DNA of 64,000 bases from IMG/VR virus record IMGVR_UViG_3300028364_000013, one strand, 5' to 3'. The notes beneath the pieces are model-generated. The model saw only the letters and a list, made by a program, of their open reading frames with translations, was not told the origin of the DNA and searched no databases. A program made the position numbers and the translations under genes. Source of the DNA: a virus. Lineage: Duplodnaviria > Caudoviricetes. Positions 1 through 53,382 of the stretch are shown here, piece after piece (the stretch's first letter is position 1; every line of letters starts with the position of its first letter).

Positions 1-1591
1 TCTTATCAGTACCAATATTTGATGTCATGATGATAATAGTGTTCTTAAAATTAATTTCTCTTCCTGTAGCATCAGTTAAAATACCATCATCAAGAATTTG
101 AAGGAAGATGTTAAAAATATCTGGATGCGCCTTTTCAATCTCATCAAAAAGCAAAATAGAGTATGGCTTGTTTTTAACAGCCTCAGTAAGTATACCTCTA
201 TCTTCGTGACCTACATATCCTGGAGGTGAACCAATAAGTTTAGTTACATTGAATTTCTCCATGTACTCACTCATATCAAATCTAATAAACGCATCTTCGC
301 TGTCAAACATAAAATTAGACAATTGCTTCGCTAAGTGTGTTTTACCAACACCTGTTGAACCTAATAATAAAAATGATGCAATTGGCTTATTAGGGTCTTG
401 AATACCCAACCTCGAACGTTGTATTGCTTCGCAAACTTTTTCAACTGCTTCATTTTGACCAATAACTGTTTTTTCAAGATAGCTCTTCATGTTGATTAAT
501 CTCTCGTTTTCATTATCTGTCATCTTTGTAATAGGAACTCCAACGTGATTAGCGATTACTTCTGCGACATCCTGAACGGTTACAACCACTCTTGTTTCTC
601 TAAGCTTTTCTTCCCACTTAATAGTTTCTTCTTCTATCTTCACGAGCATTGCTCTCTCTTTGTCTCTAAACTTTGCTGCATCTTCGTATTTTTGACTCTT
701 TGCAGCATCGCTCTTCTTTTCCTGGATTCCTTCAAGCTCTTTTTCAAGTTTCTTGATTCCTTCTGGAACTGGCGTGTTATTCAACTTAACTCTTGAACCT
801 ACTTCGTCCAATGCGTCAATAGCTTTATCTGGAAAGTTTCTGTAATTAACATACCTATCAGTAAATTCAACACACTTCTCAAGAACTTCATCAGAATAAA
901 TCACATTGTGATAATTCTCATACCTTTCTCTAAGCTGCTTTAGAATCTGTAAAGTCTCTTCTGGCGAAGGGATGTCTACATAAATTTTTTGAAATCTTCT
1001 TTCAAGAGCGGAATCGCTCTCAATAATCTTCTTGTACTCATCAACCGTTGTAGCACCGATTACCTTAATCTCACCTCTGGCAAGCGCTGGCTTGATGATG
1101 TTTGATGCATCCATAGAGCCAGATGCTCCACCTGCTCCAACTACATTATGAAGCTCATCAATGAATATAATTACATCTGGACTTCCTTTTACTTCTTTTA
1201 AAAGGTCTTCCATGCGTTGCTCAAATTCGCCTCTATATTTAGTTCCAGATACAAGTGAGGTAAAATTAATCTCAACTATTCTTTTGTTAAAAAGCCATCT
1301 ATCAACTTGCTTGTTAGCGATTCTTAAAGCAAGACCTTCTGCGATAGCAGTTTTACCAACTCCAGCCTCTCCTACAAGTACAGGGTTATTTTTCTTTCTC
1401 TTATTGAGGATTTGAACTAACTTGTCAACCTCTGCATCTCTACCAACAACAGGGTCAAGTCCACCTTTAGTGGCCAACGCTGTTAAATCCTTTCCATAAT
1501 GGTCAAGGATTGGAGTTTTGCTCTTACTATTCTTTTTGATTCTATCTGTATTAGAATCATCGTCTTCTGGTCCAAAAGCTCTTCTGTCCAT
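1..1591 (-). CDS. clpC: ClpC/ClpB-family AAA+ chaperone ATPase (runs off the window edge; no N-terminal Clp repeat domain)
   Basis: Own translation from ATG at 1591: [26 protein letters not shown] (Walker A1), [25 protein letters not shown] (Walker A2), [32 protein letters not shown]. Confidence 0.93.
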
Positions 1592-1949: not shown

Positions 1950-2297
1950 CTAAACTCCTAAATTTGAATAAAATTGATGATTTTCTTTCAAATTGTTGAT
2001 AACTATTTCTGCTATGTCGAGAATATTAAAGAGACTTCTCTTTGCTTTTTCCACATAAATACCTTTAACAAATTCCTCCATTGGAAATCCGTATAGGTCA
2101 TTGTTTTCAGAAACTTCATCCCAATTCATCAAATAATCTTCTTTAGTGTCTATTTCCTCTGGAAGCCTTACGATGTCATCTTTCTTGTGATAAGGAAAAC
2201 TATTGTGACCACCAACTACCGAATGAGATGGGTGTTCCTGCTGCATCGCCTCATGCAACGCTCGCCTTATTTCTTCTCTTATTTCTTTTTCTTCCAT
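1950..2297 (-). CDS. Hypothetical protein with Glu-rich amphipathic N-terminal leader
   Basis: ORF; N-terminus MEEKEIREEIRRALHEAM; TATTTATA motif upstream. Confidence 0.75.
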   Translation of the reverse strand: MEEKEIREEIRRALHEAMQQEHPSHSVVGGHNSFPYHKKDDIVRLPEEIDTKEDYLMNWDEVSENNDLYGFPMEEFVKGIYVEKAKRSLFNILDIAEIVINNLKENHQFYSNLGV

Positions 2298-3815: not shown

Positions 3816-4244
3816 TTATTTTTCCCCTGGAGCAAGGTCAGTGTGAGAGTTGTCTCCTATCCCGTGCTTGCGCTTGAAGTTGCTAAGTATTTTTATAAGA
3901 AATGATGTTGGCCTACCTTGAGTTTCGCCATTAGGCCTAAGGTTATCTAAGTGTTTCATTGTCCACTTATTCGGTCTTCCATCTGGAAGTATGTATTGTT
4001 CATTATTATGATACCATCTTTGACCATCCCATACATACAAAGGATGTTGTTCTCCATAAGAATACGCTGCATACATTTGACCAAGGTCTCCCAAATCTTC
4101 ACCATAAGTGTGTGAGCCAACGAAGTTTTGTCTATTCGCAACTTCCTCTGCAGCATCTTTATTGGAAATTCTTTCTTCCTTATAAAGTTCTTCTTTGAAA
4201 ACTTTCGAAAACTCTTCGTTTACTATGTCTGTAAGCTTTTTCAT
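3816..4244 (-). CDS. Hypothetical phage protein with Glu-rich leader
   Basis: ORF; MKKLTDIVNEEFSKVFKEE; YSYGEQHPLYVWDG core; TATTTATA upstream. Confidence 0.75.
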   Translation of the reverse strand: MKKLTDIVNEEFSKVFKEELYKEERISNKDAAEEVANRQNFVGSHTYGEDLGDLGQMYAAYSYGEQHPLYVWDGQRWYHNNEQYILPDGRPNKWTMKHLDNLRPNGETQGRPTSFLIKILSNFKRKHGIGDNSHTDLAPGEK

Positions 4245-4311: not shown

Positions 4312-4336
4312 AACATTATTTTTAAATTTACGTATA
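4312..4336 (+). promoter_or_regulatory. ECF-like promoter AACATT-N13-CGTATA (copy 1)
   Basis: Exact motif 22 nt upstream of ORF 4359; four identically spaced copies in the window. Confidence 0.65.
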
Positions 4337-4358: not shown

Positions 4359-4754
4359 ATGGGACTAAAATACAAACTTAGAAAACTACGAGTAAGGCTC
4401 AAAAAATCTAAAGATAAAGACTTAGCTTTGGATGACGTTCAAGAAAAAGCTATTGCAGTTGTTATTCAAATGATTAACAGTAGCAGTAGCGAATTAATCA
4501 TGGACCCCAAAAATTCAAGAAAAGGCGTTAAAAATAAAGACTCATTCATCTGCATTAGAAGACATAAATTAACTATTATTAATGGAGGATACCCTTATGA
4601 TGTACCTATTGATGACAGGATTCATGACCATATTACAGAAAAATTCTACGAAAAACTAACAAGAAGATTTAATGCAATTGATTGCCAAATTGATTCTATG
4701 GTAAAAGAGAATTTAGACACCATAAAAGATAATCTAAAAAATAAAGAATCTTAA
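4359..4754 (+). CDS. Hypothetical basic protein (131 aa)
   Basis: ORF directly downstream of AACATT/CGTATA motif. Confidence 0.75.
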   Translation: MGLKYKLRKLRVRLKKSKDKDLALDDVQEKAIAVVIQMINSSSSELIMDPKNSRKGVKNKDSFICIRRHKLTIINGGYPYDVPIDDRIHDHITEKFYEKLTRRFNAIDCQIDSMVKENLDTIKDNLKNKES

Positions 4755-4762
4755 ATTTTCCA

Positions 4763-4787
4763 AACATTTTCTTTTTGTTTACGTATA
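4763..4787 (+). promoter_or_regulatory. ECF-like promoter AACATT-N13-CGTATA (copy 2)
   Basis: Exact motif 29 nt upstream of ORF 4817. Confidence 0.65.
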
Positions 4788-4816: not shown

Positions 4817-5458
4817 ATGCTATACTATTTTGATAAAGAAAAACTTGAATATAGATTTGCTAAAAAATCATTAGCAATAATTGTCACATCAACTCTATTG
4901 CTAATTGCAGTTGCTGTACTCTTTATAAGCTCGCTAATGGCTAATAAAAGAGTTGAGAAGAAAATTAATGAAAATCCGAACATTATCAACCTATCCTCAA
5001 TGGAGCCAGAGGAAATTATAGTCGTTGTCAATAACGCTGATGAATTCTCTGAAGAAAAACTTAAAAACTATATTCTTGAGTTAAATATTAAATTTCCAGA
5101 CATTGCGTTTGCACAAGCGAGATATGAAAGCGGAAACTGGGGGACCAATCCTGGCGCTAATATGTTTGAGAAAAACAATAACCTTTTTGGAATGAAGTGT
5201 GCGACCTCAAGAACAACAACTCACAAGGGAGAGCAAAATGGTCACGCTTATTATAGTCACTGGAGAGAAAGTGTTATTGACTATGCTATGTGGCAGGATG
5301 CCTACGCAAGAGATTTGAAGACCAGAGAAGATTATGTCGCTTACCTCAAGAGGGTGTATGCCGAGGGAACATATGTTTCTATCATGCAAATCGTCAAAGA
5401 GGTTAGAAAAAAATACCCAGAACTTTACGTCAAGTCTTATCCAAAATTAGATAAATAA
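4817..5458 (+). CDS. Membrane-anchored glucosaminidase (GH73-like peptidoglycan hydrolase)
   Basis: N-terminal TM helix; AFAQARYESG...NNNLFGMK and YYSHWRESVIDY motifs. Confidence 0.8.
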   Translation: MLYYFDKEKLEYRFAKKSLAIIVTSTLLLIAVAVLFISSLMANKRVEKKINENPNIINLSSMEPEEIIVVVNNADEFSEEKLKNYILELNIKFPDIAFAQARYESGNWGTNPGANMFEKNNNLFGMKCATSRTTTHKGEQNGHAYYSHWRESVIDYAMWQDAYARDLKTREDYVAYLKRVYAEGTYVSIMQIVKEVRKKYPELYVKSYPKLDK

Positions 5459-5513
5459 AAAAACCCTCCAGCATTGCTGAAAGGTTCTTTTAATTTAATA
5501 AACAAAACTTAAT

Positions 5514-6067: not shown

Positions 6068-6099
6068 CAAATCTATGTCACTTTTAGTTAACATCCAAA
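6068..6099 (-). promoter_or_regulatory. Bacteroidota sigma-A type promoter TTTG-N20-TAGATTTG upstream of ssb
   Basis: Plus strand CAAATCTA 6068-6075 and CAAA 6096-6099. Confidence 0.7.
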
Positions 6100-6156
6100 T
6101 TTATTTTGACTTTTTTGATGTATTTATTAGAAACAACTCATTAACATTACCAAACA

Positions 6157-7557
6157 ATGAACAAAGACGTTAAAAAAATAATTTCAGAAGCATTCAATGA
6201 ACTATATAAAGATTTGATTTCTGAAGCAGAAGCTGGTATGAATCCTGCAGACAAAGCAGCAGCAGATAAAATGATTGCAAGAGTTAAAACTTATGGAGAT
6301 GCAAGTGGGTTCTCAAACAATGGAGCAAACACAAAGCAGAATGATGTTTTTAACTACATATTAGATGCGCTTATTTCTGAATACAAAAGTACAGAAGACC
6401 AAAATACTAAGCAAAAAATTAAAAATGGTATCCAGGGAGCTTTTTTCCCAGCAATGAATGCAGATGGAAGACCCAACAAGACATTAAATGTACTTATGGG
6501 AAAATGGCCAGGAAAAGATAGAGATGCAGTTCAAGATGCTGCAGCTTCAGCGTATGAATCATTCATGAAAAACTTTGATGGGTTTATAGACAAATACACA
6601 CCTGGAGCTGGAAGTAGTTTTGGTGGAATTGTTTTAAACAACTTGAATTCTAAAATGTATGATGTAATTCAAAAAGGATTTAGAGGAAAAGGCCTTGGTG
6701 GAACTCAGGATACTTATTCAAGAGCTGGAAACAGCATGGGCTCTATGGATGACCCTTATGGAGACGATAGCACACTTGGAGCGACAATGGCTGACCCAAA
6801 CTCATTAGGAGCAGACAATGACACTGAAGCATCAATATCGGAAGACCAAGATTTATTGGCAATCGTTAATGGATGGCTTAAGAATAATGTTTCAGAAAAA
6901 CAATACATCGCCTTTAGAGAACTTACAAAAGGATTTACTCCAAATGAAGTTGCTGAAGATTTCCCAGAGCATTTTGGAATTGGTAAAGATGTTTCAAGAA
7001 ATTTCGCACAATTACTTTCGAGAAAAGAAAAAGATGAAGATGGAAACACTGCCCTTACGCTTGACAGACTTAGCGACATGCTTTCTTATGCAAAGAAAAG
7101 AGATATTGACTTGAAAAACATAGTTCTTAAAAATCTTAGACAAACTATCTCTCAAGACCCAAGCTTCTCTGGGGATGGAAAACGTTCTTACGTATCTTCT
7201 CCTGAAACAAAAGCGGCTCTTAAAGATTTGAGCGATTCAATGTATGAACTTGGTCCAGATGTTTTAAGCAAACTTGGAGTTAAAGATAAAATTGATTTCC
7301 AAAATGGAGCTCAAATTTCAAAAATTATAAACAAACTTACTGTCCTTGGATTGGAAAGTGAGGTTCGTGATATTGAAGATGCTTGGGCTGATGTTAAAAG
7401 AACAAGAGATGCCTCAGCTGATTATGGTAAAGTAACTAACTATGCCGACAAAGTAGATGAAAGCGGTATCGCAGGAATGTTTGAAGGACTTGATGTCTAT
7501 GATGGTTTCGATATAGAAATTCTTATGAACAGAGTTATGCAAAGATTATCAAAATAA
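6157..7557 (+). CDS. Divergent sigma70/ECF-like protein with Glu-rich leader (putative virion-associated sigma factor)
   Basis: Region-2-like DRDAVQDAAASAYESFMKNFDGFIDKYTPGAGSSFGGIVLNNLNSKMYDVIQK; region-3.2-like SMDDPYGDDSTLGATMAD; region-4-like NVSEKQYIAFRELTKGFTPNEVAEDF. Confidence 0.55.
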   Translation: MNKDVKKIISEAFNELYKDLISEAEAGMNPADKAAADKMIARVKTYGDASGFSNNGANTKQNDVFNYILDALISEYKSTEDQNTKQKIKNGIQGAFFPAMNADGRPNKTLNVLMGKWPGKDRDAVQDAAASAYESFMKNFDGFIDKYTPGAGSSFGGIVLNNLNSKMYDVIQKGFRGKGLGGTQDTYSRAGNSMGSMDDPYGDDSTLGATMADPNSLGADNDTEASISEDQDLLAIVNGWLKNNVSEKQYIAFRELTKGFTPNEVAEDFPEHFGIGKDVSRNFAQLLSRKEKDEDGNTALTLDRLSDMLSYAKKRDIDLKNIVLKNLRQTISQDPSFSGDGKRSYVSSPETKAALKDLSDSMYELGPDVLSKLGVKDKIDFQNGAQISKIINKLTVLGLESEVRDIEDAWADVKRTRDASADYGKVTNYADKVDESGIAGMFEGLDVYDGFDIEILMNRVMQRLSK

Positions 7558-7577: not shown

Positions 7578-7606
7578 AAAAGACACCTCATTGGGTGTCT
7601 TTTTTT
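7578..7606. terminator. Bidirectional intrinsic terminator between convergent genes
   Basis: AAAAGACACC-loop-GGTGTCTTTT with T-run. Confidence 0.75.
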
Positions 7607-7607
7607 G

Positions 7608-7826
7608 TTATAACAACAATGCTTTAAAGTTTTGATTGTCTATCTGCTGAGGAACCCCATCGACAAGTTTATAAATATTAAGGTCTGAATCAAATAGAAC
7701 TAAATCATAATTCATATCTTCTTCTGTAAGAATTTTGTCATTCTCCATATCCTTAATTCTCACGATGTGCCTCTTGAGTCTTGACGCAAACATTTTATCA
7801 ACTTTATCGTGAAATTCTTTATTCAT
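7608..7826 (-). CDS. Hypothetical protein (72 aa)
   Basis: ORF co-oriented with 7844-8392. Confidence 0.6.
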   Translation of the reverse strand: MNKEFHDKVDKMFASRLKRHIVRIKDMENDKILTEEDMNYDLVLFDSDLNIYKLVDGVPQQIDNQNFKALLL

Positions 7827-7843: not shown

Positions 7844-8392
7844 TTATTTATTATCGTATTTTGATTTTTTAGCTTTTGCGTAAATACCAATCGGTAAAAT
7901 TATAATACCAATAATCAATGGTAAAGTACAGATGCCTAAAATTAACCACGCATTAGCGACATATCTTTGTGCATACCAAGGTTTTGATGCATCCATCTCA
8001 TCTTCTTTAATTTTTTGCATATTCTGTGCATATTTAACCTCAAATTCAACATCGGATAATTTAACAATTTCAGATAAGTATTTTGTTAAATCTTGGAGAT
8101 GATAATTCGCATTTTGGACCTCAATTGAGTTATCAAAAGAGCCAAGCTTACGTCTAATCTCAATTGTAATTTTCGTGCTTATATCTGAAATTTTAGTCAT
8201 ATTAAAGTCAATATAGACACCTAATGATAAACCCTCAAAGCATTCAAGAATAACTTGGTTAAGAATGTCATTCTCATCATGAATTCTATATTTACCATCG
8301 GATGTGATATAAATTTTAGAAATAGATGATTTTACTTTTTCTATTGGGAAATCAATTGTGATTTCTTTCTTTGGATTTAGAATGCTAATCAT
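7844..8392 (-). CDS. Hypothetical membrane protein (C-terminal TM hairpin)
   Basis: AWLILGICTLPLIIGIIILPIGIY hydrophobic stretch; AACATT/CGTATA promoter upstream. Confidence 0.75.
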   Translation of the reverse strand: MISILNPKKEITIDFPIEKVKSSISKIYITSDGKYRIHDENDILNQVILECFEGLSLGVYIDFNMTKISDISTKITIEIRRKLGSFDNSIEVQNANYHLQDLTKYLSEIVKLSDVEFEVKYAQNMQKIKEDEMDASKPWYAQRYVANAWLILGICTLPLIIGIIILPIGIYAKAKKSKYDNK

Positions 8393-8428: not shown

Positions 8429-8453
8429 TATACGTTAAATTTAAAGAAATGTT
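8429..8453 (-). promoter_or_regulatory. ECF-like promoter AACATT-N13-CGTATA (copy 3)
   Basis: Plus strand TATACG 8429-8434 and AATGTT 8448-8453. Confidence 0.65.
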
Positions 8454-12010: not shown

Positions 12011-12274
12011 TTACACAAACTCACCATTGATGTAATTATTTCTTTCTTTTATTTTTTCATCACTCCAATTTTCTTGTACAGATTTGACAAAATTAACCTC
12101 CGTTTTTGAGGTCCAAAACAACTTTTTATAATCACTATTATATGTTTCAAAAAAAAGAAGACCGTCCTCGTCTTCTTTTATTAAGATGAGCTCTTGGCTA
12201 TGTGGAATAACTTCGCCATCACCCATCTCTTTGTTTTTAACTAATATATAATAATCTACATTAACTTCTTTCAT
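12011..12274 (-). CDS. Hypothetical protein (87 aa)
   Basis: ORF translationally coupled to the sigma factor stop. Confidence 0.7.
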   Translation of the reverse strand: MKEVNVDYYILVKNKEMGDGEVIPHSQELILIKEDEDGLLFFETYNSDYKKLFWTSKTEVNFVKSVQENWSDEKIKERNNYINGEFV

Positions 12275-13170
12275 TATCTAATTTCACAATTTAAAAACTC
12301 TTTTAGTTTTGAACTATTATTAAACGTTCTTAACTTTTTAAGAGCAAATTCTTTAATCTGTCTAACTCTTTCGTTTGTTAGACCAATTTTATTTCCTATT
12401 TCAGCAAGAGTCATCTCTTCTCCTCCATCAAGTCCAAAATACATCTTTAAGATAACACCTTCTCTTTCTGTCAACTCATCTAAAACGTCTTCTATTTCAG
12501 TCTGAAGAGCATGTTTATTCATTCCGTTTTCCATCTCTCTTAATCCATCTCCAGCCATTGACTCGTGAAGTTCTGTAGCAGACTCATCTGACACAGTTGT
12601 GTTAAGAGAAATCTCTATGCCATTATCGGTATAAGCATTCCTAACCTCTTTTTCAGACAAAGTTGACTTCCCTTCTTCTTCATTGTAATAAAAATTACTA
12701 ATCTCTTTTATAGTCGGCTCCCTACTAAGCTCTTTAGAAAGCGCTTCCGTAGCCTTTATCACCTTATTGATTGCATTGATTCTATTCACTGGCAATCTAA
12801 CTGAACTTCCATTTTCGTATGCTGATTGCAATATAGATTGTCTAATCCACCAAACCGCATAAGAAATAAACATAAACCCCTTAGTGTCATCAAAACGCTC
12901 TACGGCTTTTATTAAACCTAAGTTACCTTCTTGAATTAAATCTTCCAGCGGCATCCCAGTATATGTGTATTCTTTTGCAACTGATAGAACAAATCTTAAA
13001 TTACTCTCAATCAATTCTTTTAAAGCCCTTTGGTCTCCGTCTCTGGCTTTTATAGCTAATTTTACTTGCTCCTTTCCATCAACCTGGTCATACCTTCTAA
13101 CTTCTTTGTAATAGCACTTAAGCGACAAGTTGTCTCTTTGCATTGTTTCATCTCCTTTCAACATATTCAT
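12274..13170 (-). CDS. rpoD: RNA polymerase sigma-70 factor (RpoD-like, short Bacteroidota type)
   Basis: LIESNLRFVLSVAKEY, DLIQEGNLGLIKAVERFD, FISYAVWWIRQSILQ, RLPVNR, MTLAEIGNKIGLTNERVRQIKEFALKKL. Confidence 0.93.
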   Translation of the reverse strand: MNMLKGDETMQRDNLSLKCYYKEVRRYDQVDGKEQVKLAIKARDGDQRALKELIESNLRFVLSVAKEYTYTGMPLEDLIQEGNLGLIKAVERFDDTKGFMFISYAVWWIRQSILQSAYENGSSVRLPVNRINAINKVIKATEALSKELSREPTIKEISNFYYNEEEGKSTLSEKEVRNAYTDNGIEISLNTTVSDESATELHESMAGDGLREMENGMNKHALQTEIEDVLDELTEREGVILKMYFGLDGGEEMTLAEIGNKIGLTNERVRQIKEFALKKLRTFNNSSKLKEFLNCEIR

Positions 13171-13728: not shown

Positions 13729-14385
13729 CTACACTGCACTTTGAACCGTTACAGCGTCAATGACTTGTTCTAATATTTCTTCTTTTAAGTCATCAAAAGA
13801 TAATCTCTTTTTTGTATTCTTTGCATATATCAACTCCTCATTTGGTTCGTCAATATACCATTTTGCATTACCAATCTCAACAGTTGGAAAATCGAGCTTC
13901 ACCTTCTTTCTCTGACCCTTACCTTGTCTGTGAGATTTTTTTTCTAAAGTATCAAAATCAACAGTCCCATCAGCATTTTTATCTGCTGTATCGTAAAATT
14001 TCTTTAATTGAGAAATTGACATTTGATGGTCGGTCCTGGTATCTTGCTGCAATTGGTTTGAGTTTCTAAAAAATATTGTCGTAATAACATTATCTCTCAC
14101 AACTGCCCAAAGCTCATCCCCAACAGAAACATGCCCAGTCTCTGGGTCTTTAGATGAATATACAACTGGATATTTCTTTATCTGTATTGATGCTGATTCA
14201 TATTCAGGAAAATTAACTCTCTTAATCAAATCTACAGCACCTTTTATTTCATCGTAATTAAACTTAGGTCTTGTATACATAGTGCTTGAAAGCCTGTCAT
14301 GAACTCTATCTTTAAAGTGAGTTGATGGCGCTGCTTCATTAAACACTTCCATTATTATGTTTCTTATTTCTTGTTGAATGTCCAT
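13729..14385 (-). CDS. Hypothetical protein with Glu-rich leader
   Basis: MDIQQEIRNIIMEVFNEA; coupled to the upstream ORF. Confidence 0.8.
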   Translation of the reverse strand: MDIQQEIRNIIMEVFNEAAPSTHFKDRVHDRLSSTMYTRPKFNYDEIKGAVDLIKRVNFPEYESASIQIKKYPVVYSSKDPETGHVSVGDELWAVVRDNVITTIFFRNSNQLQQDTRTDHQMSISQLKKFYDTADKNADGTVDFDTLEKKSHRQGKGQRKKVKLDFPTVEIGNAKWYIDEPNEELIYAKNTKKRLSFDDLKEEILEQVIDAVTVQSAV

Positions 14386-14693
14386 TAAAAAGTGTCTTTA
14401 TATTTTAAGATTTGCTGCATTTTAACAGCATCCAATACAGTACCTCCTTTAAGAGTCATTGTGTATTCTTTAGATATTGCATTTTGAATCTCTTCGAAAC
14501 TCAATCTGGTGTCATCAACCAAGAAACCTCTCTCTGAAAATGTGATAACATATTCAGATTCTGTGCCGCCATTAAACCTGACTGCTTTTGGCTTCATCTT
14601 AACCTTTGGTGCTGGAGCTTGCATAGGAGGAAACTCCTCGCTCAATAATGCGCCTTTTAAAATGCTTGAAATCTCTTCTCTTAATTCGTCCAT
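14385..14693 (-). CDS. Hypothetical protein with Glu-rich leader
   Basis: Start MDELREEISSILKGALLSEE at 14693, 16 nt after the TATTTATT motif. Confidence 0.75.
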   Translation of the reverse strand: MDELREEISSILKGALLSEEFPPMQAPAPKVKMKPKAVRFNGGTESEYVITFSERGFLVDDTRLSFEEIQNAISKEYTMTLKGGTVLDAVKMQQILKYKDTF

Positions 14694-39858: not shown

Positions 39859-40347
39859 TTAAGAATTCATAAAACCTTTATACACTTTAGCTGGGTTGCT
39901 GTTTCCAACTGTGGCGTTAAAACCTGTTACCGCTTTTTTAAACACTGGACTTCCAGACTTAGCGCCATCCCTCATAACGTCAAGGTTAGCTGTTTTTTGG
40001 TAAATATTAAAAGCTTCCTTGTCGTCTTTGTGAGACATGATATTGTCTCTATGAGCAATAACTCTATCTAAAGAATTAGTGTCTGCTCTATTTTCTGAAT
40101 CTCCAAACATTCTGAAGAAAGAAATAAAGTAAGGAATTCCAAATGGCAAAAGAAAACCTAAAGTCATGCCAATACCATTATCTTCAAGTACTGATTGGAT
40201 AACCTTTGGGTCAATAGCTCCGAATATAAAATAAATCATTAAATTATATCCAATAAAAGCAATTATTGTAAGATTAAAAGGAATTACATAAAACCAGTAC
40301 ATAAGCACTTTAGCAATTGTAAGTAATATATTTTTAATAGTATTCAT
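39859..40347 (-). CDS. Hypothetical membrane protein
   Basis: Two to three hydrophobic N-terminal helices; AACATT/CGTATA promoter upstream. Confidence 0.75.
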   Translation of the reverse strand: MNTIKNILLTIAKVLMYWFYVIPFNLTIIAFIGYNLMIYFIFGAIDPKVIQSVLEDNGIGMTLGFLLPFGIPYFISFFRMFGDSENRADTNSLDRVIAHRDNIMSHKDDKEAFNIYQKTANLDVMRDGAKSGSPVFKKAVTGFNATVGNSNPAKVYKGFMNS

Positions 40348-40376: not shown

Positions 40377-40401
40377 TATACGATAAAACTTTAAAAATGT
40401 T
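40377..40401 (-). promoter_or_regulatory. ECF-like promoter AACATT-N13-CGTATA (copy 4)
   Basis: Plus strand TATACG 40377-40382 and AATGTT 40396-40401. Confidence 0.65.
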
Positions 40402-44048: not shown

Positions 44049-44408
44049 TTAGATTTGAGGGCTCGTTTGTGACTGACCATCAGTTTGAGTTTGTATCTGA
44101 CTTTGCATTTGAGAAAACTTGACAGCATTTATTTCTGACTGCTTAGACATATCAAGCTCTTTCTTTTTCATTTCAAGCCTATCTTTTACAACTTTAGCCT
44201 GAGCAACTCTCGCATCTCTCTCGTCTCTTGGTAATCCAGAAACTCTTGAGTCAGCTTCTCTATATTTAAGTTCAATCTCAAGGTCTTTAATATATTCCTC
44301 ATCAGATTTAATCATATCCTGACTTAGTTGCATTGGGTCTTCTTCCCCTATTTCCATCATAACCTTGTAGACTTCCTCTTTGATTATTTCTCTTAGTTGC
44401 TTATTCAT
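44049..44408 (-). CDS. Hypothetical coiled-coil protein with Glu-rich leader
   Basis: MNKQLREIIKEEVYKVMMEIGEE. Confidence 0.75.
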   Translation of the reverse strand: MNKQLREIIKEEVYKVMMEIGEEDPMQLSQDMIKSDEEYIKDLEIELKYREADSRVSGLPRDERDARVAQAKVVKDRLEMKKKELDMSKQSEINAVKFSQMQSQIQTQTDGQSQTSPQI

Positions 44409-44880
44409 CTTTCAATAATTTTTTAAATCTCTTCCTTTGTGTTTTGTAATCATTATTAAGGTCATGCTCCCACACTCTCTCAATACTAAAACCATTTCCC
44501 TTTGCAAGTACGTCTTTAAACTTGTCGTTCTTTACGTTTCTAATTTGCATTTTATTCAAATCCTTTGACTCGTATATTAATGGGTTTGCGTGATAATAAT
44601 CCCCATCAACCTCAACCATCATATTCTTTGATGGTATGTAAAAGTCATATATCTTGTTTCCAAGAACTTTTTGTGTTTCAAATTTAATGTCAAGCTCTTC
44701 CATCATATCAGAAAAAATTCTCTCAGGAGCCGTCATTTTATTTGCCATTTTCTTGGCTTGTGACTCCAGTTTCTTTTTTTTCATCAACTTAGCAGCTTCA
44801 GGGCTTGCTTCCCTTCTGGCTTTTGCCATCGCCTTCTTGACCATTTGAGCATATGTCAACTTCTTTCTTTTCTTAGCCAT
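44401..44880 (-). CDS. DUF559/Vsr-like PD-(D/E)XK nuclease with basic N-terminus
   Basis: IYDFYIPSKNMMVEVDGDYYH, RVWEHD. Confidence 0.78.
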   Translation of the reverse strand: MAKKRKKLTYAQMVKKAMAKARREASPEAAKLMKKKKLESQAKKMANKMTAPERIFSDMMEELDIKFETQKVLGNKIYDFYIPSKNMMVEVDGDYYHANPLIYESKDLNKMQIRNVKNDKFKDVLAKGNGFSIERVWEHDLNNDYKTQRKRFKKLLKDE

Positions 44881-45674
44881 TAAGCAAATCCTAATTTAGG
44901 AAGTATATTGCCTATATTTGCAAGACTAAACTCTCCAAGCTCTGCGCCTTTTGCTCCTGTTAAAATACCTGGGTGCGCCAATCCGCCTGCGAACATAATA
45001 GCAACTCCTCCCATGAAAATACCATTTGCAGCCTTGTGAATTTGCGCCTTGTCAGCATTAGGCATAAATGGAGCAATAGCCTTTTCTATAATAGCAATAT
45101 ACTTGTGATGTATTTTTTCTCCAGCCTTTGCTGTTTTTCCACCCCACTTCTGAAGCCACTGTGAATTCATTTTCTTCCCTGTCCATTCTGCAGCTTTTCC
45201 GCCATACTTTAAGATAGCTGGAACTGCCATAGCTAAACCAAGAATACCACCTTCATTTAGGTCTTCTTCATTTAACCCTTCTCCTATTGCTCCCATGAAC
45301 ATAGACTCATTGAATGTTATTTCACTAATCATTCCTTCTTGAATTGGTTGAGCCCCAGTTTGTGCTGGCTGCGCTTGAGCATTGTTGTCATAAACGCCTG
45401 GAGCATCCAATGCACCATCCTTATCTCCTCCAGATTTTGCAAACTTAGCAAGAACAGAAGGAAGACCTTGTACTAACTTAGCCATTGCCTGGTCCATAGT
45501 TGCATCAATGTTTTGACCTATCTTTTGGTCTCTCTGTGGGTCTACAGCAGGTTTTTGAGCTTGCGCAGGCGCAGCGGGTGCTGCAGGAGCAACCTGTGCT
45601 TCATTAATTTTTGATTCTAATAAAGTTTTCATTTTATTAAAAGATTCCTCTACTATTTTCTTTTTATTATTCAT
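44880..45674 (-). CDS. Hypothetical Ala/Gly-rich probable virion protein
   Basis: Start MNNKKKIVEES, 14 nt after TATTTATA; INE/IQE/LNE motifs; hydrophobic Gly-rich helices. Confidence 0.75.
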   Translation of the reverse strand: MNNKKKIVEESFNKMKTLLESKINEAQVAPAAPAAPAQAQKPAVDPQRDQKIGQNIDATMDQAMAKLVQGLPSVLAKFAKSGGDKDGALDAPGVYDNNAQAQPAQTGAQPIQEGMISEITFNESMFMGAIGEGLNEEDLNEGGILGLAMAVPAILKYGGKAAEWTGKKMNSQWLQKWGGKTAKAGEKIHHKYIAIIEKAIAPFMPNADKAQIHKAANGIFMGGVAIMFAGGLAHPGILTGAKGAELGEFSLANIGNILPKLGFA

Positions 45675-49909: not shown

Positions 49910-52249
49910 TCAATTGTTAGCTTCATCTTCTTTTTTACTTAAATCTTTATCAACTCGAACGATTCTCGTTCCTCTCTTAAAATTAACATAACCTTTTTCG
50001 TTCTTTTCAAACTCAGCAACATAAATGCCATTGGCAGCAAGGAGTGGTTGTAGAGATTTCGCAACTGGGTCGAAAGCTCTAAGTGTTGTGAAACTAATTC
50101 CATCACCAACTCTCATTGTTAAATATTCTTTTCCATTCTTACTCATAGAAACCTTAAAGGTATCTACCACAAAAATGTAGAAATCATTATCATCAAAATT
50201 AATAATTGTCTCAACAAGCTTATCTCTCTTAGCTCTCTTGTTTACATCAGCCTTTATGTCCTGAATGTACTTTATTTTTTCAAGGTCAAAATTACACACC
50301 TCAAGGAAATCTGTTCTTTTCGATGCCCAGTTTGTTGGAGGATATTTGTTCTCTTCTTTTTTAACTGGAATGTCAAAAGCTTCGTCATTCATATCAAACA
50401 AAACAGTTTGATTTGCGTTTACTTTCTTTTTCTTTTTTGTCTTAGACTTAAGGTCAGCAAGCTGTTCTCTTGAATCGCTCCAATCATCAAATACGCCAGC
50501 TTTAAGGCAAGCTTCAAAAGCACTTTTATTAAACTTGCTAAACGGCAATCTAAAGAACAAACTCATACTCACAGTCTCAAGGGTTTTTTTCTCCTGACCT
50601 TCTTTGACTTTTATTTCTTTAATCAAATCAAGCATCTCTTCGTATGCAATTGGGCCCAATCCGTTAATACCAGAGAATCCCATAGAAATTTCGTGCTCAC
50701 CAGTCATTGTCCATCTCCATCCAGACTTTCTTGATGGCATCTTTATCTCAATCCCTTTTGACATCGCAGAAGCAATTGCAGAACCAATCCAAGCTTGCTG
50801 TTTTTCTTTGTTACCAGACTTAGGGTGATTTAGAAGGGCGGTATAAAACTCGGTTGGGTAGTAGTGTTTTAAATACAAAGTTTGCATCGCCAAATAACTA
50901 TATGAAAGTGCATGAGACTTATTGAATGAGTATCCAAGGTATTGAATTACCCAATCTTTAATTTTATCTACATCACCTTTGTCATAACCTTGAGCTGCAG
51001 CCCCATCTAAGAACATGTTCCAATACTGCTGGAAACCTTTCCAGTTCTTGTCGTTTTTCTCTGTATCAGTTAGCGTCTCTCCCGCTGAATTTCTTGCAAT
51101 AATTTTAGATGCCTTATCCATATACCTTCTAAGCATATCTCCTTTACCAAGACCCATTCCACCAATCTTATCAGCAATAAACATAAGTTGTTCCTGAAAC
51201 ACAAGTACTCCATTCGTTTCTCCAAGAATCGGCTTCAACGCAGGGTGGATATATTTAATCTTCTCTGGGTTGAATTTGTTTACGATAAACTCTTCGTGTG
51301 CGCCAATTCCCATTGGGCCTGGACGATACAGTGCGTTGGCAGCAACAAGTTCTTCAAATTTATCAACTGCAATACCTCTAATAAGATTGTTCATACCATG
51401 ACTCTCAAACTGAAATATCCCATGATTAAGACCAAGCCTTAATTCTGTAAATAACTTTGGGTCTTCAAGGTCAACGTAATCAACTTTTTGAGAAATATCT
51501 TCTCCCGTTGTTCTTTTTACAATGTCAACAGTTTCCTTAATTACATTTAAGGTTTCTAATTTTAATCTATCCAATTTTAGAATCCCAAGTGCTGAAAGGT
51601 CTTTTCCAGACTTATCCGCCTCCTGAAACGCTGTAACAACACTTCCGTTGGATGTGATTACATTGGTTGGAATATAATCCCAAGATAACCCTGGTGTAAT
51701 TACAACTCCTGCAGCATGCTGTCCAATACCTCTAATGTTTCCATGAAGCTGGAGAGCAGTCTCAATCATCTCCTTATTTTTTGGCTCTCTAATCCAATTT
51801 CTAACTTCTGGACTACACTCTGGTTTATCTGGCCAAGTTTCAAACCAATGCCTAAGAGTGTCGTTGTAATTTAAGAAGTTCGGCATCTCCTTTGTTAATT
51901 TAAACACTCCAGAATCAAACCCAGTAGCATCGCTTCCACGATATGCACGAACAACATCCTTAATTGTATTCTTCTCAGAAAATGTAGAAAAAGTAGCAAC
52001 AGACATAACACGTTCTTTTCCATACTTGTCTTGTAGGAATTGATTTGTTACATCATCTGTACCTGTCATAAAATCAATATCAATATCGGGAGGAGAATTG
52101 TGAATTAAAACACTTGAAATCAATGAGTTATAGCAATCATCTAAAGTTTTACTTGAACTGTAAAAAAGATTATCTTTATCAAAAGATAAATCATAAACCT
52201 TATTTTTATAATCAATTTTATTTATTGATTTTATTTTTGATAATCTCAT
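49910..52249 (-). CDS. dnaE: DNA polymerase III alpha, C-terminal fragment led by a split-intein C half
   Basis: IntC ending LIHN then SPPDIDIDF, HAAGVVI, GIFQFES, LYRPGP, YSFNKSHA. Confidence 0.93.
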   Translation of the reverse strand: MRLSKIKSINKIDYKNKVYDLSFDKDNLFYSSSKTLDDCYNSLISSVLIHNSPPDIDIDFMTGTDDVTNQFLQDKYGKERVMSVATFSTFSEKNTIKDVVRAYRGSDATGFDSGVFKLTKEMPNFLNYNDTLRHWFETWPDKPECSPEVRNWIREPKNKEMIETALQLHGNIRGIGQHAAGVVITPGLSWDYIPTNVITSNGSVVTAFQEADKSGKDLSALGILKLDRLKLETLNVIKETVDIVKRTTGEDISQKVDYVDLEDPKLFTELRLGLNHGIFQFESHGMNNLIRGIAVDKFEELVAANALYRPGPMGIGAHEEFIVNKFNPEKIKYIHPALKPILGETNGVLVFQEQLMFIADKIGGMGLGKGDMLRRYMDKASKIIARNSAGETLTDTEKNDKNWKGFQQYWNMFLDGAAAQGYDKGDVDKIKDWVIQYLGYSFNKSHALSYSYLAMQTLYLKHYYPTEFYTALLNHPKSGNKEKQQAWIGSAIASAMSKGIEIKMPSRKSGWRWTMTGEHEISMGFSGINGLGPIAYEEMLDLIKEIKVKEGQEKKTLETVSMSLFFRLPFSKFNKSAFEACLKAGVFDDWSDSREQLADLKSKTKKKKKVNANQTVLFDMNDEAFDIPVKKEENKYPPTNWASKRTDFLEVCNFDLEKIKYIQDIKADVNKRAKRDKLVETIINFDDNDFYIFVVDTFKVSMSKNGKEYLTMRVGDGISFTTLRAFDPVAKSLQPLLAANGIYVAEFEKNEKGYVNFKRGTRIVRVDKDLSKKEDEANN
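52097..52249 (-). mobile_element. Split intein C-terminal half (51 aa)
   Basis: MRLSKIKSINKIDYKNKVYDLSF...SSVLIHN followed by Ser+1. Confidence 0.85.
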
Positions 52250-53325
52250 AATTTACTTGCTTCTATTTGACTTTTTATATATACTAAAACATTTTCTTTA
52301 TTATCCTTCCAGTCTTTTTCCCAAATTTCTATATAACTACAATTAATAACACTTATAATTTCATTCTTTCTTTTTCTATCATCTCTCCAAATCTCAGATG
52401 CCAATCTTTTTTTGTTTTTATGATAAAAATCATGACTATAAATCATTGGATTACAATGCCAATAATCACCCATAATTTCAATAGCTATATTGTGTTCATT
52501 ATTATAATAATCAAGTTTATAAAATTTACTTTTGTTTACAATTAAAACTTTTTGACCAAATTCAGAATTATAATGATAAGAATCGTTTAATCCTAAATTT
52601 TGTAATTCTAAAATAATTTCCCTCTCCAAGTTAGAGGATTCTCCTAAGTTTTTATTTGTTTTTTTAGCATTTTCCATTTGCCACTCTTTATCCATAAACA
52701 AATTATCTACTCCAAACTTATCCTGCATAGTCATTGTTACAGCTGAATAATGACAACCACGCTCCAAGAACCAACTCACACCATACCTATCATCCATGGT
52801 CTTAGAAATCTTATCCTTAATCTTCTTATATTGAATTGGTGCCTTAAGACCAGTTGTTCCAAGATTTTTATTCAAAGACTTTTCATATTGACTTCTATAC
52901 TCTTTAGTCTTATAATAAAGTGATTTATAATCTTTCTCAGATAATACGTGTCCATTAGACCAGAATTTAATACCCTTTCTTGATGGGTGTAGGTCTATTA
53001 GCTCATCTTTCTCGGAAAACTTATTGTACATTTTAACCTTTGACTCAGTTAATGAATAATCCTGGTTTCCACACTTAATAAGAACAGCACTGTGTCCTCT
53101 TGGTCCTTTTCCAAAATAGCAATCTTCAACAATTCCGATAAAACTTTCTTTATTGTACAATTCTTTTCCAATTAAATTTTCAATAGAAACCGATAATTTA
53201 CTTTTATATGGCCATATTTCTATTTCGTTATTATCAGCTTTTTTAAAGTCAAAAAACTCACACAACCCAGCAACTAAATCACTCTGACCATCGAACTCAA
53301 TATTTAACAACTCTTCTTTTTTCAT
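52246..53325 (-). mobile_element. Free-standing PD-(D/E)XK-type endonuclease gene between the split-intein halves
   Basis: TMDDRYGVSWF/TMQDKFGVDN repeats, YKLDYYNNEHNIAIEIMGDYWHCNP, EIWEKDW; start MKKEELL at 53325 after TATTTATA. Confidence 0.75.
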
Positions 53326-53382
53326 AATTATAAAATCTGTATCTATAAATATAGATAAAAACTTCAAACGATATTTGTATTT

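What the first reader, a model, noticed from the sequence alone, without database searches (positions are those of the whole stretch)
6157..7557. Candidate virion-packaged, injected sigma factor
Seen: the 466-aa ORF has sigma-like segments in the correct order (region 2, region 3.2 SMDDPYGDDSTLG, region 4 HTH). It carries the Glu-rich leader shared with many late genes (MNKDVKKIISEAFNELYKDLISE) and is preceded by the late-type TATTTATT motif (6121-6128). Inference: it is made late, loaded into the head, matured by the prohead protease and injected to redirect host RNA polymerase to immediate-early promoters, plausibly AACATT-N13-CGTATA. A packaged sigma (rather than a packaged RNA polymerase) would be an unusual way to start a phage programme; I do not know of it being described, but could not search.
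Basis: partly seen in the sequence, partly recalled or inferred. Interest (0 to 1): 0.88.

Follow-up and report, generated by a model that had tools for sequence, protein, structure and literature searches.

The report
Phage sigma factor with capsid-targeting leader
A giant lake-water phage encodes a very divergent sigma factor that is made late and carries the short N-terminal tag that T4-type phages use to load proteins into the head, so it may be delivered with the DNA, though this is unproven.

Summary
ORF 6157-7557 (466 aa) has no Pfam or PHROG match. Its predicted fold has a sigma2 domain (aa 50-175) and a sigma4 domain (aa 225-314), joined by a region-3.2-like linker. The sigma2 part is modelled on the beta' clamp helices of a Flavobacterium RNA polymerase (0.62; best control 0.00).

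The gene is a single-gene unit behind TATTTATTAGAAAC. That box sits at the same distance from the start codon in all five lineages, exact in three and slightly varied in two.

The N-terminal leader is the best-conserved part of the family (ISE|A in 28 of 33). It resembles the T4 capsid-targeting sequence. In related phages such leaders crowd the gene cluster around the gp21-type protease and the gp23 capsid gene.

The AACATT-N13-CGTATA promoters are real: 4 found, 0.04 expected. They occur in the two phage records that carry this protein (6 each). Five records without it (1.08 Mb) have none, and the complete immuto genome has one atypical hit.

Packaging and injection remain untested. The promoter's targets are mostly envelope proteins and a cell-wall hydrolase, which would also fit a very-late class.

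Verdict: sigma identity about 0.9; the full packaged-and-injected model about 0.4.

The scan had noted this same stretch in two overlapping windows, not on other DNA.

The parts
6095..6134 (+). Late-type promoter region: conserved T-rich upstream stretch and the box TATTTATTAGAAAC (6121-6134), 28 nt before the start codon
   Evidence: the box is conserved at the same distance in five family lineages
6157..7557 (+). CDS of the 466-aa divergent sigma-like protein (P0001), stop codon included
   Evidence: family of about 27 cluster representatives
6157..6225 (+). N-terminal leader, aa 1-23: amphipathic helix with two Phi-x-E sites (ISE|A at aa 9-12; Phi-x-E at aa 21-23). It is the best-conserved segment of the family
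   Evidence: column conservation 0.72 against 0.44-0.48 for the sigma domains; ISEA in 28 of 33; resembles the T4 CTS
6304..6681 (+). sigma2-like domain, aa 50-175
   Evidence: VIA-align: T4 gp55 7d7d_F Z 7.8, rmsd 2.8, 96 aligned; pro-sigmaK 8vjl_B Z 7.4; RpoS and ECF region 2. Modelled interface with the beta' clamp helices through aa 90-102 and 123-138
6682..6834 (+). Low-confidence linker, aa 176-226, holding the region-3.2-like motif S-M-D-D-P-Y-G-D-D-S-T-L-G (aa 196-208, nt 6742-6780); no sigma3 domain
   Evidence: pLDDT below 50; the profile aligns to region 3.2 of RpoD/RpoS
6835..7098 (+). sigma4-like helix-turn-helix domain, aa 227-314
   Evidence: VIA-align: SigH 3mzy_A Z 7.4; SigR region 4 5fgm_A Z 6.3, rmsd 2.5; RpoS region 4 and SigF
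7144..7554 (+). C-terminal helical extension, aa 330-466, of unknown role. It holds the conserved G-M-F-E-G (aa 440-444) and a conserved terminal helix
   Evidence: only generic helical-bundle matches; C-terminal conservation 0.56; MFEG in 17 of 33
7578..7603 (.). Hairpin with an A-run and a T-run between P0001 and the convergent gene 7608-7826; read as a two-way terminator that closes the single-gene unit
5456..5492 (.). Terminator-like hairpin between 4817-5458 (+) and the SSB gene (-), which isolates P0001 from upstream plus-strand transcription
4312..4336 (+). ECF-type promoter AACATT-N13-CGTATA before ORF 4359-4754
4763..4787 (+). ECF-type promoter before ORF 4817-5458 (membrane-anchored glucosaminidase)
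8429..8453 (-). ECF-type promoter before ORF 7844-8392 (protein with a C-terminal membrane anchor)
40377..40401 (-). ECF-type promoter before ORF 39859-40347 (multi-pass membrane protein); the orthologue in the 95-kb relative has the same promoter

Best explanation
P0001 is a highly divergent sigma-70-family factor of a T4-like jumbo phage from lake water, whose host is probably a member of the Bacteroidota. It has a sigma2 and a sigma4 domain joined by a region-3.2-like linker, with no sigma3 domain. It also has a 23-aa N-terminal leader and a C-terminal extension of about 140 aa. It is transcribed as a single-gene unit from a conserved late-type promoter. The leader is of the same kind as the T4 capsid-targeting sequence: about 10-20 residues ending in hydrophobic-x-Glu, the gp21-type cleavage motif. 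I infer that the protein is made late as a pro-form, taken into the prohead core, trimmed by the gp21-type protease and delivered with the DNA. In the next cell it would bind host core RNA polymerase and direct it to the phage's ECF-type promoters AACATTTT-N11-CGTATA. Shown in silico: the sigma fold, the modelled beta' interface, the conserved late-type box, the shared leader, and co-occurrence with the promoter class. Inferred only: late timing, packaging, cleavage, injection, and promoter specificity.
For: Sigma identity. The sigma2 and sigma4 folds appear in the right order (the Foldseek list is dominated by sigma factors). The structural neighbours of the Atlas's own model are all sigma-70 families. 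A family profile hits only RpoD/RpoS in the PDB, on region 3.2. The modelled complex with F. johnsoniae beta' residues 1-420 scored 0.62 against a best control of 0.00; 51 of 78 solved complexes and 2 of 108 mismatched pairs reached that mark. The three runs share at least 40% of their contacts and the partner's pLDDT is at least 74. The interface lies on beta' 292-319, where the clamp helices are expected by analogy with E. coli.

Late expression. TATTTATTAGAAAC is the same box as before baseplate and other late genes. It is conserved 28-29 nt upstream in five lineages whose proteins are down to 28% identical. The unit is isolated by terminators.

Leader. It is the most conserved segment. It is enriched at N-termini in two genomes. 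T4 IPII/IPIII begin MKTYQEFIAE|A and T4 gp22 begins MLKEQLIAEA, and their CTS role is reviewed in PMC9026906. The phage has a Portal_T4 portal. All five leader-using relatives searched have Peptidase_S77. In two related records, 8-10 genes around the protease and gp23 open with the leader, including the scaffold-position gene, which begins ...KSIIDEA(F/L), close to KIISEAF here. Three of 15 leader-tagged proteins carry a lysozyme domain and one a SprT-like peptidase domain, cargo typical of ejected proteins.

Promoter pairing. The AAC/CGT architecture fits a two-domain sigma. There are 6 copies in each of the two P0001-bearing records. There are none in 1.08 Mb of five records that lack P0001 yet encode RpoD-like sigmas, and one atypical hit in the complete immuto genome. 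Three of the four window copies lie within 2.3 kb of the gene.
Against: There are no virion, cleavage or expression data; no RNA runs hold the locus. No prohead protease or capsid gene lies in the 81 kb of this genome that is held, about 25% of it. The promoter's targets are mostly membrane or secreted proteins plus a membrane-anchored peptidoglycan hydrolase. That hydrolase is replaced by a different hydrolase family at the same position in a relative, which looks like a lysis or envelope class that could be very late. Replication genes have host-type TAnnTTTG boxes, so no injected sigma is needed. Earlier unchecked notes report another phage ECF sigma elsewhere in the genome that could serve the AAC/CGT promoters. 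Sequence-level homology to sigma is weak (hhalign probability 1.5%; no Pfam hit in any of 33 members). The complex score may reflect likeness to solved sigma-beta' structures. The co-occurrence rests on few and related genomes.
Confidence: 0.4

Rival explanations
1. Same sigma factor, but not packaged. It is made late and acts in the same cell, switching host RNA polymerase to a very-late class of AACATTTT-N11-CGTATA promoters that drive envelope and lysis genes. The leader would be a pro-sequence or autoinhibitory segment, as in Bacillus pro-sigmaE and pro-sigmaK.
For: The gene has a late-type promoter. The targets include a membrane-anchored glucosaminidase with an endolysin PHROG hit. A relative has an SLT-type hydrolase at the same position behind the same promoter. 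Small membrane proteins are also targets. Pro-sigmaK is among the best structural matches.
Against: It does not explain why the same leader opens many unrelated proteins, nor why it crowds the prohead-core cluster next to the gp21-type protease in relatives. It also does not explain why the leader is more conserved than the sigma domains.
Confidence: 0.3
2. A sigma mimic rather than a working sigma. It binds the beta' clamp helices to displace or block host sigma factors (host shut-off) without recognising promoters of its own. It could be delivered from the virion or made late.
For: The sigma2 domain and the beta' interface are the best-supported features. The protein is too divergent for Pfam and has an unexplained C-terminal domain.
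Against: A complete sigma4 HTH and a region-3.2-like finger are retained and conserved. A phage-specific promoter class co-occurs with the gene.
Confidence: 0.1
3. It is the phage's late sigma, the counterpart of T4 gp55 (or gp55 plus gp33), recognises TATTTAT(A/T) and activates its own gene.
For: T4 gp55 is the top structural match for aa 53-174 (Z 7.8, tied with other sigmas). Its own promoter is of the late type.
Against: The complete genome of Flavobacterium phage immuto uses the same CTATTTATA box before portal, terminase and other structural genes. Yet it has no homologue even at E 10 with the family profile. The gene has only a late-type promoter, so the loop would have no starter.
Confidence: 0.05
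4. The AAC-N16-CGTATA promoters are served by a host ECF sigma, or by the other phage ECF sigma, released through the phage's PrsW-family protease. P0001 would then have some other RNA-polymerase-linked role.
For: A PrsW-family intramembrane protease is conserved near the locus in four lineages. From established knowledge, in B. subtilis PrsW starts the degradation of the anti-sigma of sigmaW, whose promoters are TGAAAC-N16-CGTA. Earlier unchecked notes report a 213-aa phage ECF sigma elsewhere in the genome.
Against: The promoter class tracks P0001 across the records compared. Whether PrsW and the other sigma track it equally well was not tested.
Confidence: 0.1

Closest known systems
T4 internal proteins IPI-III and Alt (capsid-targeting sequence, gp21 cleavage, ejection with the DNA)
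   Same: Both have a short N-terminal leader ending in hydrophobic-x-Glu followed by Ala (T4 MKTYQEFIAE|A; here MNKDVKKIISE|A). Both belong to a T4-type head lineage, are late genes, and share one leader among unrelated proteins. Alt also acts on host RNA polymerase, and both of its termini are processed; here both termini are conserved.
   Different: The cargo would be a sigma factor, not an ADP-ribosyltransferase or a restriction inhibitor. No proteomic or genetic evidence exists here. The leader consensus differs from that of T4.
Virion RNA polymerases (N4 vRNAP, phiKZ/AR9 virion multisubunit RNAP, crAss-like phage vRNAP)
   Same: Transcription machinery made late, packaged, and injected to transcribe the first genes from phage-specific promoters.
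   Different: Those phages deliver a whole polymerase and do not depend on the host enzyme. Here only a specificity subunit would be delivered, and host core enzyme would be used. I found no description of a packaged sigma in the reviews and searches read.
ECF (group 4) sigma factors such as B. subtilis sigmaW
   Same: Two-domain sigma2-sigma4 build. The associated promoters have AAC at -35 and CGT at -10, with the sigmaW-like AAC-N16-CGT spacing (from established knowledge).
   Different: There is no Pfam or ECF signature match. The linker carries a group 1-3 style region-3.2 motif. There is a long C-terminal extension and an N-terminal leader. No anti-sigma gene is seen next to it.
Bacillus pro-sigmaE and pro-sigmaK
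   Same: A sigma made as an inactive precursor with a 20-30 aa N-terminal pro-sequence that a dedicated protease removes. Pro-sigmaK is a top structural match (Z 7.4).
   Different: The protease would be a capsid maturation protease and the compartment a prohead. Processing has not been shown.
T4 gp55 late sigma
   Same: A phage sigma2-like domain in a T4-like phage; best single structural match (Z 7.8).
   Different: gp55 is a sigma2-only protein of about 185 aa. This protein has a sigma4 domain and extra domains, and it does not co-occur with the late promoter motif.

Membership tests
sigma-70 family | sigma2 domain fold (regions 1.2-2.4) | tested here: met
   aa 50-175 align to T4 gp55 (Z 7.8, rmsd 2.8, 96 residues), pro-sigmaK, RpoS and ECF region 2. 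The Z values are middling for helical proteins, but the hits are consistent and the Atlas neighbours agree.
sigma-70 family | sigma4 helix-turn-helix domain C-terminal to sigma2 | tested here: met
   aa 225-314 align to SigH, SigR region 4 (rmsd 2.5, 64 residues), RpoS region 4 and SigF.
sigma-70 family | match to the curated sequence models (Sigma70_r2, r3, r4) | tested here: not met
   No Pfam hit for P0001 at E 10. None of the 33 members matches r2 or r4, and one matches r3 at E 0.12. hhalign against an RpoD-like alignment finds only the 3.2 motif, probability 1.5%.
sigma-70 family | region 3.2 linker motif | tested here: inconclusive
   The family profile aligns S-x-D-x-P-x-G-D-D...L-G-D to region 3.2 of RpoD/RpoS. 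These are the only PDB hits, but the E-values are 0.1-1.2.
sigma-70 family | binds the beta' clamp helices of core RNA polymerase | tested here: met
   In silico only. Score 0.62, best control 0.00; the mark was reached by 51 of 78 solved complexes and 2 of 108 mismatched pairs. The runs agree in at least 40% of contacts and the partner's pLDDT is at least 74. The interface is on beta' 292-319. The pass may come from likeness to solved holoenzymes, and the host polymerase is a stand-in.
sigma-70 family | promoter-specific initiation with core enzyme | not testable with these tools
   This needs in vitro transcription. Only co-occurrence with AACWTT-N12-14-CGTATA was shown.
ECF (group 4) sigma | sigma2 and sigma4 only, no sigma3 domain | tested here: met
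   The model has a disordered linker at aa 175-226 between the two domains.
ECF (group 4) sigma | ECF sequence signature (Sigma70_r4_2, ECF-type region 2) | tested here: not met
   No Pfam match.
ECF (group 4) sigma | cognate anti-sigma factor next to the gene | not tested
   The gene is a single-gene unit between terminators. The neighbours are an SSB gene and a 72-aa ORF of unknown function.
T4-type capsid-targeted, gp21-processed head proteins | N-terminal leader of about 10-20 aa ending in (L/I/V)-x-E | tested here: met
   I-S-E|A at aa 9-12 in 28 of 33 members; hydrophobic-x-E at aa 21-23 in nearly all. Compared with T4 IPII/IPIII/gp22.
T4-type capsid-targeted, gp21-processed head proteins | the phage has the T4-type head machinery (gp20 portal, gp21 protease, gp23 capsid) | tested here: inconclusive
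   Portal_T4 is present in this genome (E 8e-81). Peptidase_S77 and Gp23 are not in the 81 kb held, about 25% of the genome. S77 is present in all five relatives searched.
T4-type capsid-targeted, gp21-processed head proteins | the leader is shared with prohead-core proteins | tested here: met
   This was shown in relatives only. There, 8-10 genes around S77 and Gp23, including the scaffold-position gene, open with the leader. In this genome the leader is on at least 5 unrelated late proteins.
T4-type capsid-targeted, gp21-processed head proteins | found in virions in processed form and ejected | not testable with these tools
   This needs virion proteomics. The phage is known only from lake metagenomes.
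T4 gp55-type late sigma | co-occurs with, and recognises, the late promoter box | tested here: not met
   Phage immuto has the late box but no homologue.

The most novel reading that the evidence does not exclude
A virion-delivered pro-sigma. The phage makes a private sigma factor late and keeps it as a pro-form. It loads it into the prohead through a T4-type capsid-targeting leader, matures it with the capsid protease and injects it with the DNA. Host core RNA polymerase would then be reprogrammed to phage ECF-type promoters at time zero, without new protein synthesis. This would lie between phages that inject a whole RNA polymerase and phages that inject only a modifier such as Alt.
Probability: 0.35. 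Interest if true: 0.85.

Novelty: new variant of a known kind. Interest (0 to 1): 0.68.

Why it matters
Phages are known to start their programme in three ways. They use host holoenzyme on host-like promoters, inject a complete RNA polymerase (N4, phiKZ, crAss-like phages), or inject an enzyme that modifies the host polymerase (T4 Alt). An injected specificity subunit would be a fourth and cheaper route. It would also show that the T4-type capsid-targeting tag is a general delivery system whose cargo includes regulators.

Even without packaging, this is a new sigma-70 lineage that current family models cannot see. It is linked to a defined promoter class in large freshwater phages. The leader itself could also serve as a protein-delivery tag in Bacteroidota phages.

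Tried and rejected
- Sequence models: Pfam, PHROGs and PDB searches with the single protein found nothing useful. Pfam on all 33 members found no sigma domain. hhalign against the phage's own RpoD-like sigma and against an alignment of 18 such sigmas gave only the 3.2 motif at low probability.
- Cultured phages: tblastn of the protein found no match and megablast of 20 kb found no relative.
- Head genes in this genome: the searches for Peptidase_S77 and Gp23 in the 81-kb and 95-kb contigs were empty. Both contigs are fragments, so this says nothing about absence.
- The rest of the 364-kb genome could not be fetched. It holds the reported early ECF-promoter island, the 213-aa ECF sigma and the run of tagged enzymes. 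Those notes therefore stay unchecked.
- A leader HMM run over the six-frame translation gave only weak hits (E 0.15-5), although the best ones were at true N-termini. A simpler motif count was used instead.
- PHROGs gave no names for the leader-tagged head-module proteins of the relative, so 'scaffold' is assigned by position only.
- Expression: no RNA holder was listed for the locus, so expression could not be examined and read laying was not used.
- P0001 homologues were sought in five leader-using IMG/VR records and none was found. The leader system is therefore wider than this protein.
- Literature searches for a packaged or virion-associated sigma found none described. The library is not exhaustive.
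- The reading 'late sigma of gp55 type' was considered and rejected on the immuto comparison.
Full report
**What is there.** ORF 6157-7557 (+) encodes a 466-aa protein, P0001. The window belongs to a large T4-like myophage known from lake-water metagenomes. The same protein is on a 364-kb contig. The window encodes a Portal_T4 portal (E 8e-81), a large terminase, T4-type baseplate proteins, ribonucleotide reductase, DnaB, a split DnaE and many homing endonucleases. The nearest cultured relative by portal is Flavobacterium phage immuto, at 40% identity. Replication genes carry the Bacteroidota-type -7 box TAnnTTTG. A Bacteroidota host is therefore likely.

**Is it a sigma factor?**
- Single-sequence searches find nothing.
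- The family is small, about 27 cluster representatives, all from metagenomes. None of its 33 aligned members matches a Pfam sigma domain.
- A profile of the family finds only RpoD and RpoS in the PDB. The alignment runs from S-x-D-x-P-x-G-D-D...L-G-D onto region 3.2 and into region 4. The E-values are weak, 0.1-1.2.
- The AlphaFold model has mean pLDDT 70, and 80-90 in the two domains. Residues 50-175 match sigma2: T4 gp55 Z 7.8 with rmsd 2.8 over 96 residues, pro-sigmaK Z 7.4, also RpoS and ECF region 2. Residues 225-314 match sigma4: SigH Z 7.4, SigR region 4 with rmsd 2.5, RpoS region 4, SigF.
- Foldseek's list is almost entirely sigma factors. The structural neighbours of the ESM Atlas's own model are sigma-70 families.
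- There is no sigma3 domain. The two domains are joined by a disordered linker that carries the 3.2-like motif.
- A modelled complex of residues 45-180 with residues 1-420 of F. johnsoniae beta' scored 0.62 against 0.00 for the best control. The mark was reached by 51 of 78 solved complexes and 2 of 108 mismatched pairs. The runs share at least 40% of their contacts and the partner's pLDDT is at least 74. The interface is on beta' 292-319, where the clamp helices are expected by analogy with E. coli, and on helices 90-102 and 123-138 of P0001. Like complexes are solved, so this shows likeness to a sigma-core interface, not binding.

Taken together I put sigma-70-family ancestry and core binding at about 0.9.

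**When is it made?**
- The box TATTTATTAGAAAC (6121-6134) is the same as before a baseplate gene and another late gene. The shorter (C)TATTTAT(A/T) lies 13-28 nt before portal, terminase, the very large structural-module genes (one with a tape-measure-like match) and homing-endonuclease genes.
- In five family lineages, with proteins down to 28% identical, the box and a T-rich stretch before it sit 28-29 nt upstream of the start codon.
- The gene is isolated by terminator-like hairpins at 5456-5492 and 7578-7603.
- It is therefore a conserved single-gene unit with a late-type promoter. 'Late' is inferred from the company the box keeps; there are no expression data.

**Which promoters might it serve?**
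- AACATT-N12-14-CGTATA occurs four times in the window against 0.04 expected. Each copy lies 22-36 nt before a start codon, and three lie within 2.3 kb of P0001.
- AAC at -35 and CGT at -10, 19 nt apart, is the ECF signature (established knowledge; sigmaW is TGAAAC-N16-CGTA). That fits a two-domain sigma.
- The 81-kb and 95-kb records that carry P0001 have six copies each, before orthologous genes. Two further P0001 contigs have one copy each next to the locus.
- The complete immuto genome, which has no P0001, has one atypical hit.
- Five other records have none. They total 1.08 Mb and include a complete 380-kb genome. They lack P0001 but encode RpoD-like sigmas.
- The class therefore tracks P0001 and not the RpoD-like sigma.
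- Caveats: the genomes are few and related. Unchecked notes also say the full genome holds a 213-aa ECF sigma and other AAC/CGT classes.
- Immuto also uses the late box before its structural genes. P0001 is therefore not the late, gp55-type sigma.

**The leader.**
- Residues 1-24 are the best-conserved part of the family: 0.72 column conservation against 0.44 for sigma2 and 0.48 for sigma4. I-S-E-A sits at 9-12 in 28 of 33 members, and hydrophobic-x-E at 21-23 in nearly all.
- The C-terminus (G-M-F-E-G plus a terminal helix) is the next best conserved segment.
- A Phi-Phi-x-E-x-Phi motif opens 5 of 83 genes in the 81-kb contig (1.1 expected) and 8 of 89 in the 95-kb relative (0.86 expected). 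These proteins are otherwise unrelated and sit mostly behind late boxes.
- T4 IPII and IPIII begin MKTYQEFIAE|A and T4 gp22 begins MLKEQLIAEA. The first ten residues of IPIII suffice for capsid targeting, gp21 cuts after the Glu, and Alt is processed at both ends (PMC9026906).
- A scan of IMG/VR for M-(N/D)-I-R-(K/Q)-I-I-(K/R)-E-E found 35 loci.
- The commonest tagged family lies between the Peptidase_S77 protease and the Gp23 capsid gene.
- In a 72-kb record and in the complete 380-kb genome, 8-10 genes of that cluster open with the leader. They include the acidic gene just before gp23, which begins ...KSIIDEA(F/L), close to KIISEAF here.
- Immuto has a leader-like 73-aa gene between portal and protease.
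- Three of 15 tagged proteins have lysozyme domains and one is SprT-like.
- All five relatives searched have the S77 protease. In this genome the protease was not in the quarter that is held.

I read the leader as a T4-type prohead-core targeting and cleavage signal, probability about 0.65.

**Putting it together.** If the leader does what it does in T4, a sigma factor that carries it ends up in the prohead. It has no plausible scaffolding role, so it would be cargo, delivered like Alt and the internal proteins.

The main rival, about 0.3, is that the sigma acts late in the same cell. Its promoter's targets are small membrane proteins, a lipoprotein and a membrane-anchored glucosaminidase. A relative has an SLT-type hydrolase in that position behind the same promoter. 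Such a swap is typical of lysis cassettes. Membrane proteins could equally be early superinfection-exclusion functions, so target identity does not decide between the two.

A packaged sigma is also not needed to start replication-gene expression.

Minor rivals are a sigma mimic that blocks host sigma, and service of the AAC/CGT promoters by a host or other phage ECF sigma released through the conserved phage PrsW protease.

**Novelty.** I found no described virion-packaged sigma in two jumbo-phage reviews, the T4 head review or three full-text searches. The protein is a new, model-invisible branch of the sigma-70 family. The proposed delivery route would be a new variant of the known theme of virion-delivered transcription machinery. 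Overlapping windows of this scan noted the same stretch twice; it was not noted on other DNA.

Noticed in passing
window 12274-13170 (-): A second, canonical phage sigma with regions 1.2, 2, 3 and 4. It is 52-55% identical to Bacteroidota-type primary sigma factors of about 290 aa. It lies in an operon behind a host-type TAnnTTTG box. Similar RpoD-like genes occur in five other leader-using phage records.
   Followed up: partly
L002:1042-1869 (-), about 1-2 kb beyond the window's start; also L010, L011, L012: A PrsW-family intramembrane metalloprotease is conserved next to a ClpB-like AAA+ gene in four lineages. In B. subtilis PrsW triggers release of sigmaW, whose promoters look like the phage's AAC-N16-CGTATA class.
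   Followed up: partly
window 4817-5458 (+) and L012:7230-8039: A membrane-anchored glucosaminidase behind the ECF-type promoter. In a relative a different peptidoglycan hydrolase (SLT-like) takes its place at the same position behind the same promoter. This looks like a lysis-cassette style swap.
   Followed up: partly
window 3816-4244 (-), 13729-14385 (-), 14385-14693 (-), 44049-44408 (-), 44880-45674 (-), 1950-2297 (-): Other unrelated late proteins that open with the same amphipathic Phi-Phi-x-E leader. None has a Pfam match. The 142-aa protein is a conserved neighbour of P0001 in all lineages seen.
   Followed up: partly
L064:8701-19223 and G003:C1:152592-160249: In T4-like relatives the genes between the S77 prohead protease and gp23, and just after gp23, nearly all open with the leader. 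Some begin with a longer form, M-K-K-R-I-V-K-L-x-E-x-D-L-E-x-L-V-K-K-I-I-K-E.
   Followed up: yes
IMG/VR loci L027-L061: The exact leader M-(N/D)-I-R-(K/Q)-I-I-(K/R)-E-E opens proteins in 35 viral loci. Three of 15 sampled proteins carry a Phage_lysozyme domain and one a SprT-like peptidase domain, so these look like tagged enzymes.
   Followed up: partly
L009 (Flavobacterium phage immuto, MW353176.1): The cultured phage uses the same late box CTATTTATA(A) before portal, terminase and other head genes. It has no Sigma70_r2 gene and no P0001 homologue, so another unidentified factor must read this box.
   Followed up: partly
window 2-1591 (-) with L002:12157-14268, and L003:2228-6448: A phage-encoded ClpB/ClpA-like AAA+ ATPase. 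In the 95-kb relative it is interrupted by an endonuclease gene, apparently with intein-like inserts.
   Followed up: no
window 49910-55584 (-): The replicative polymerase gene (PHROG 'DNA polymerase'; read here as DnaE-type) is split in two by an endonuclease gene that has its own late box.
   Followed up: no
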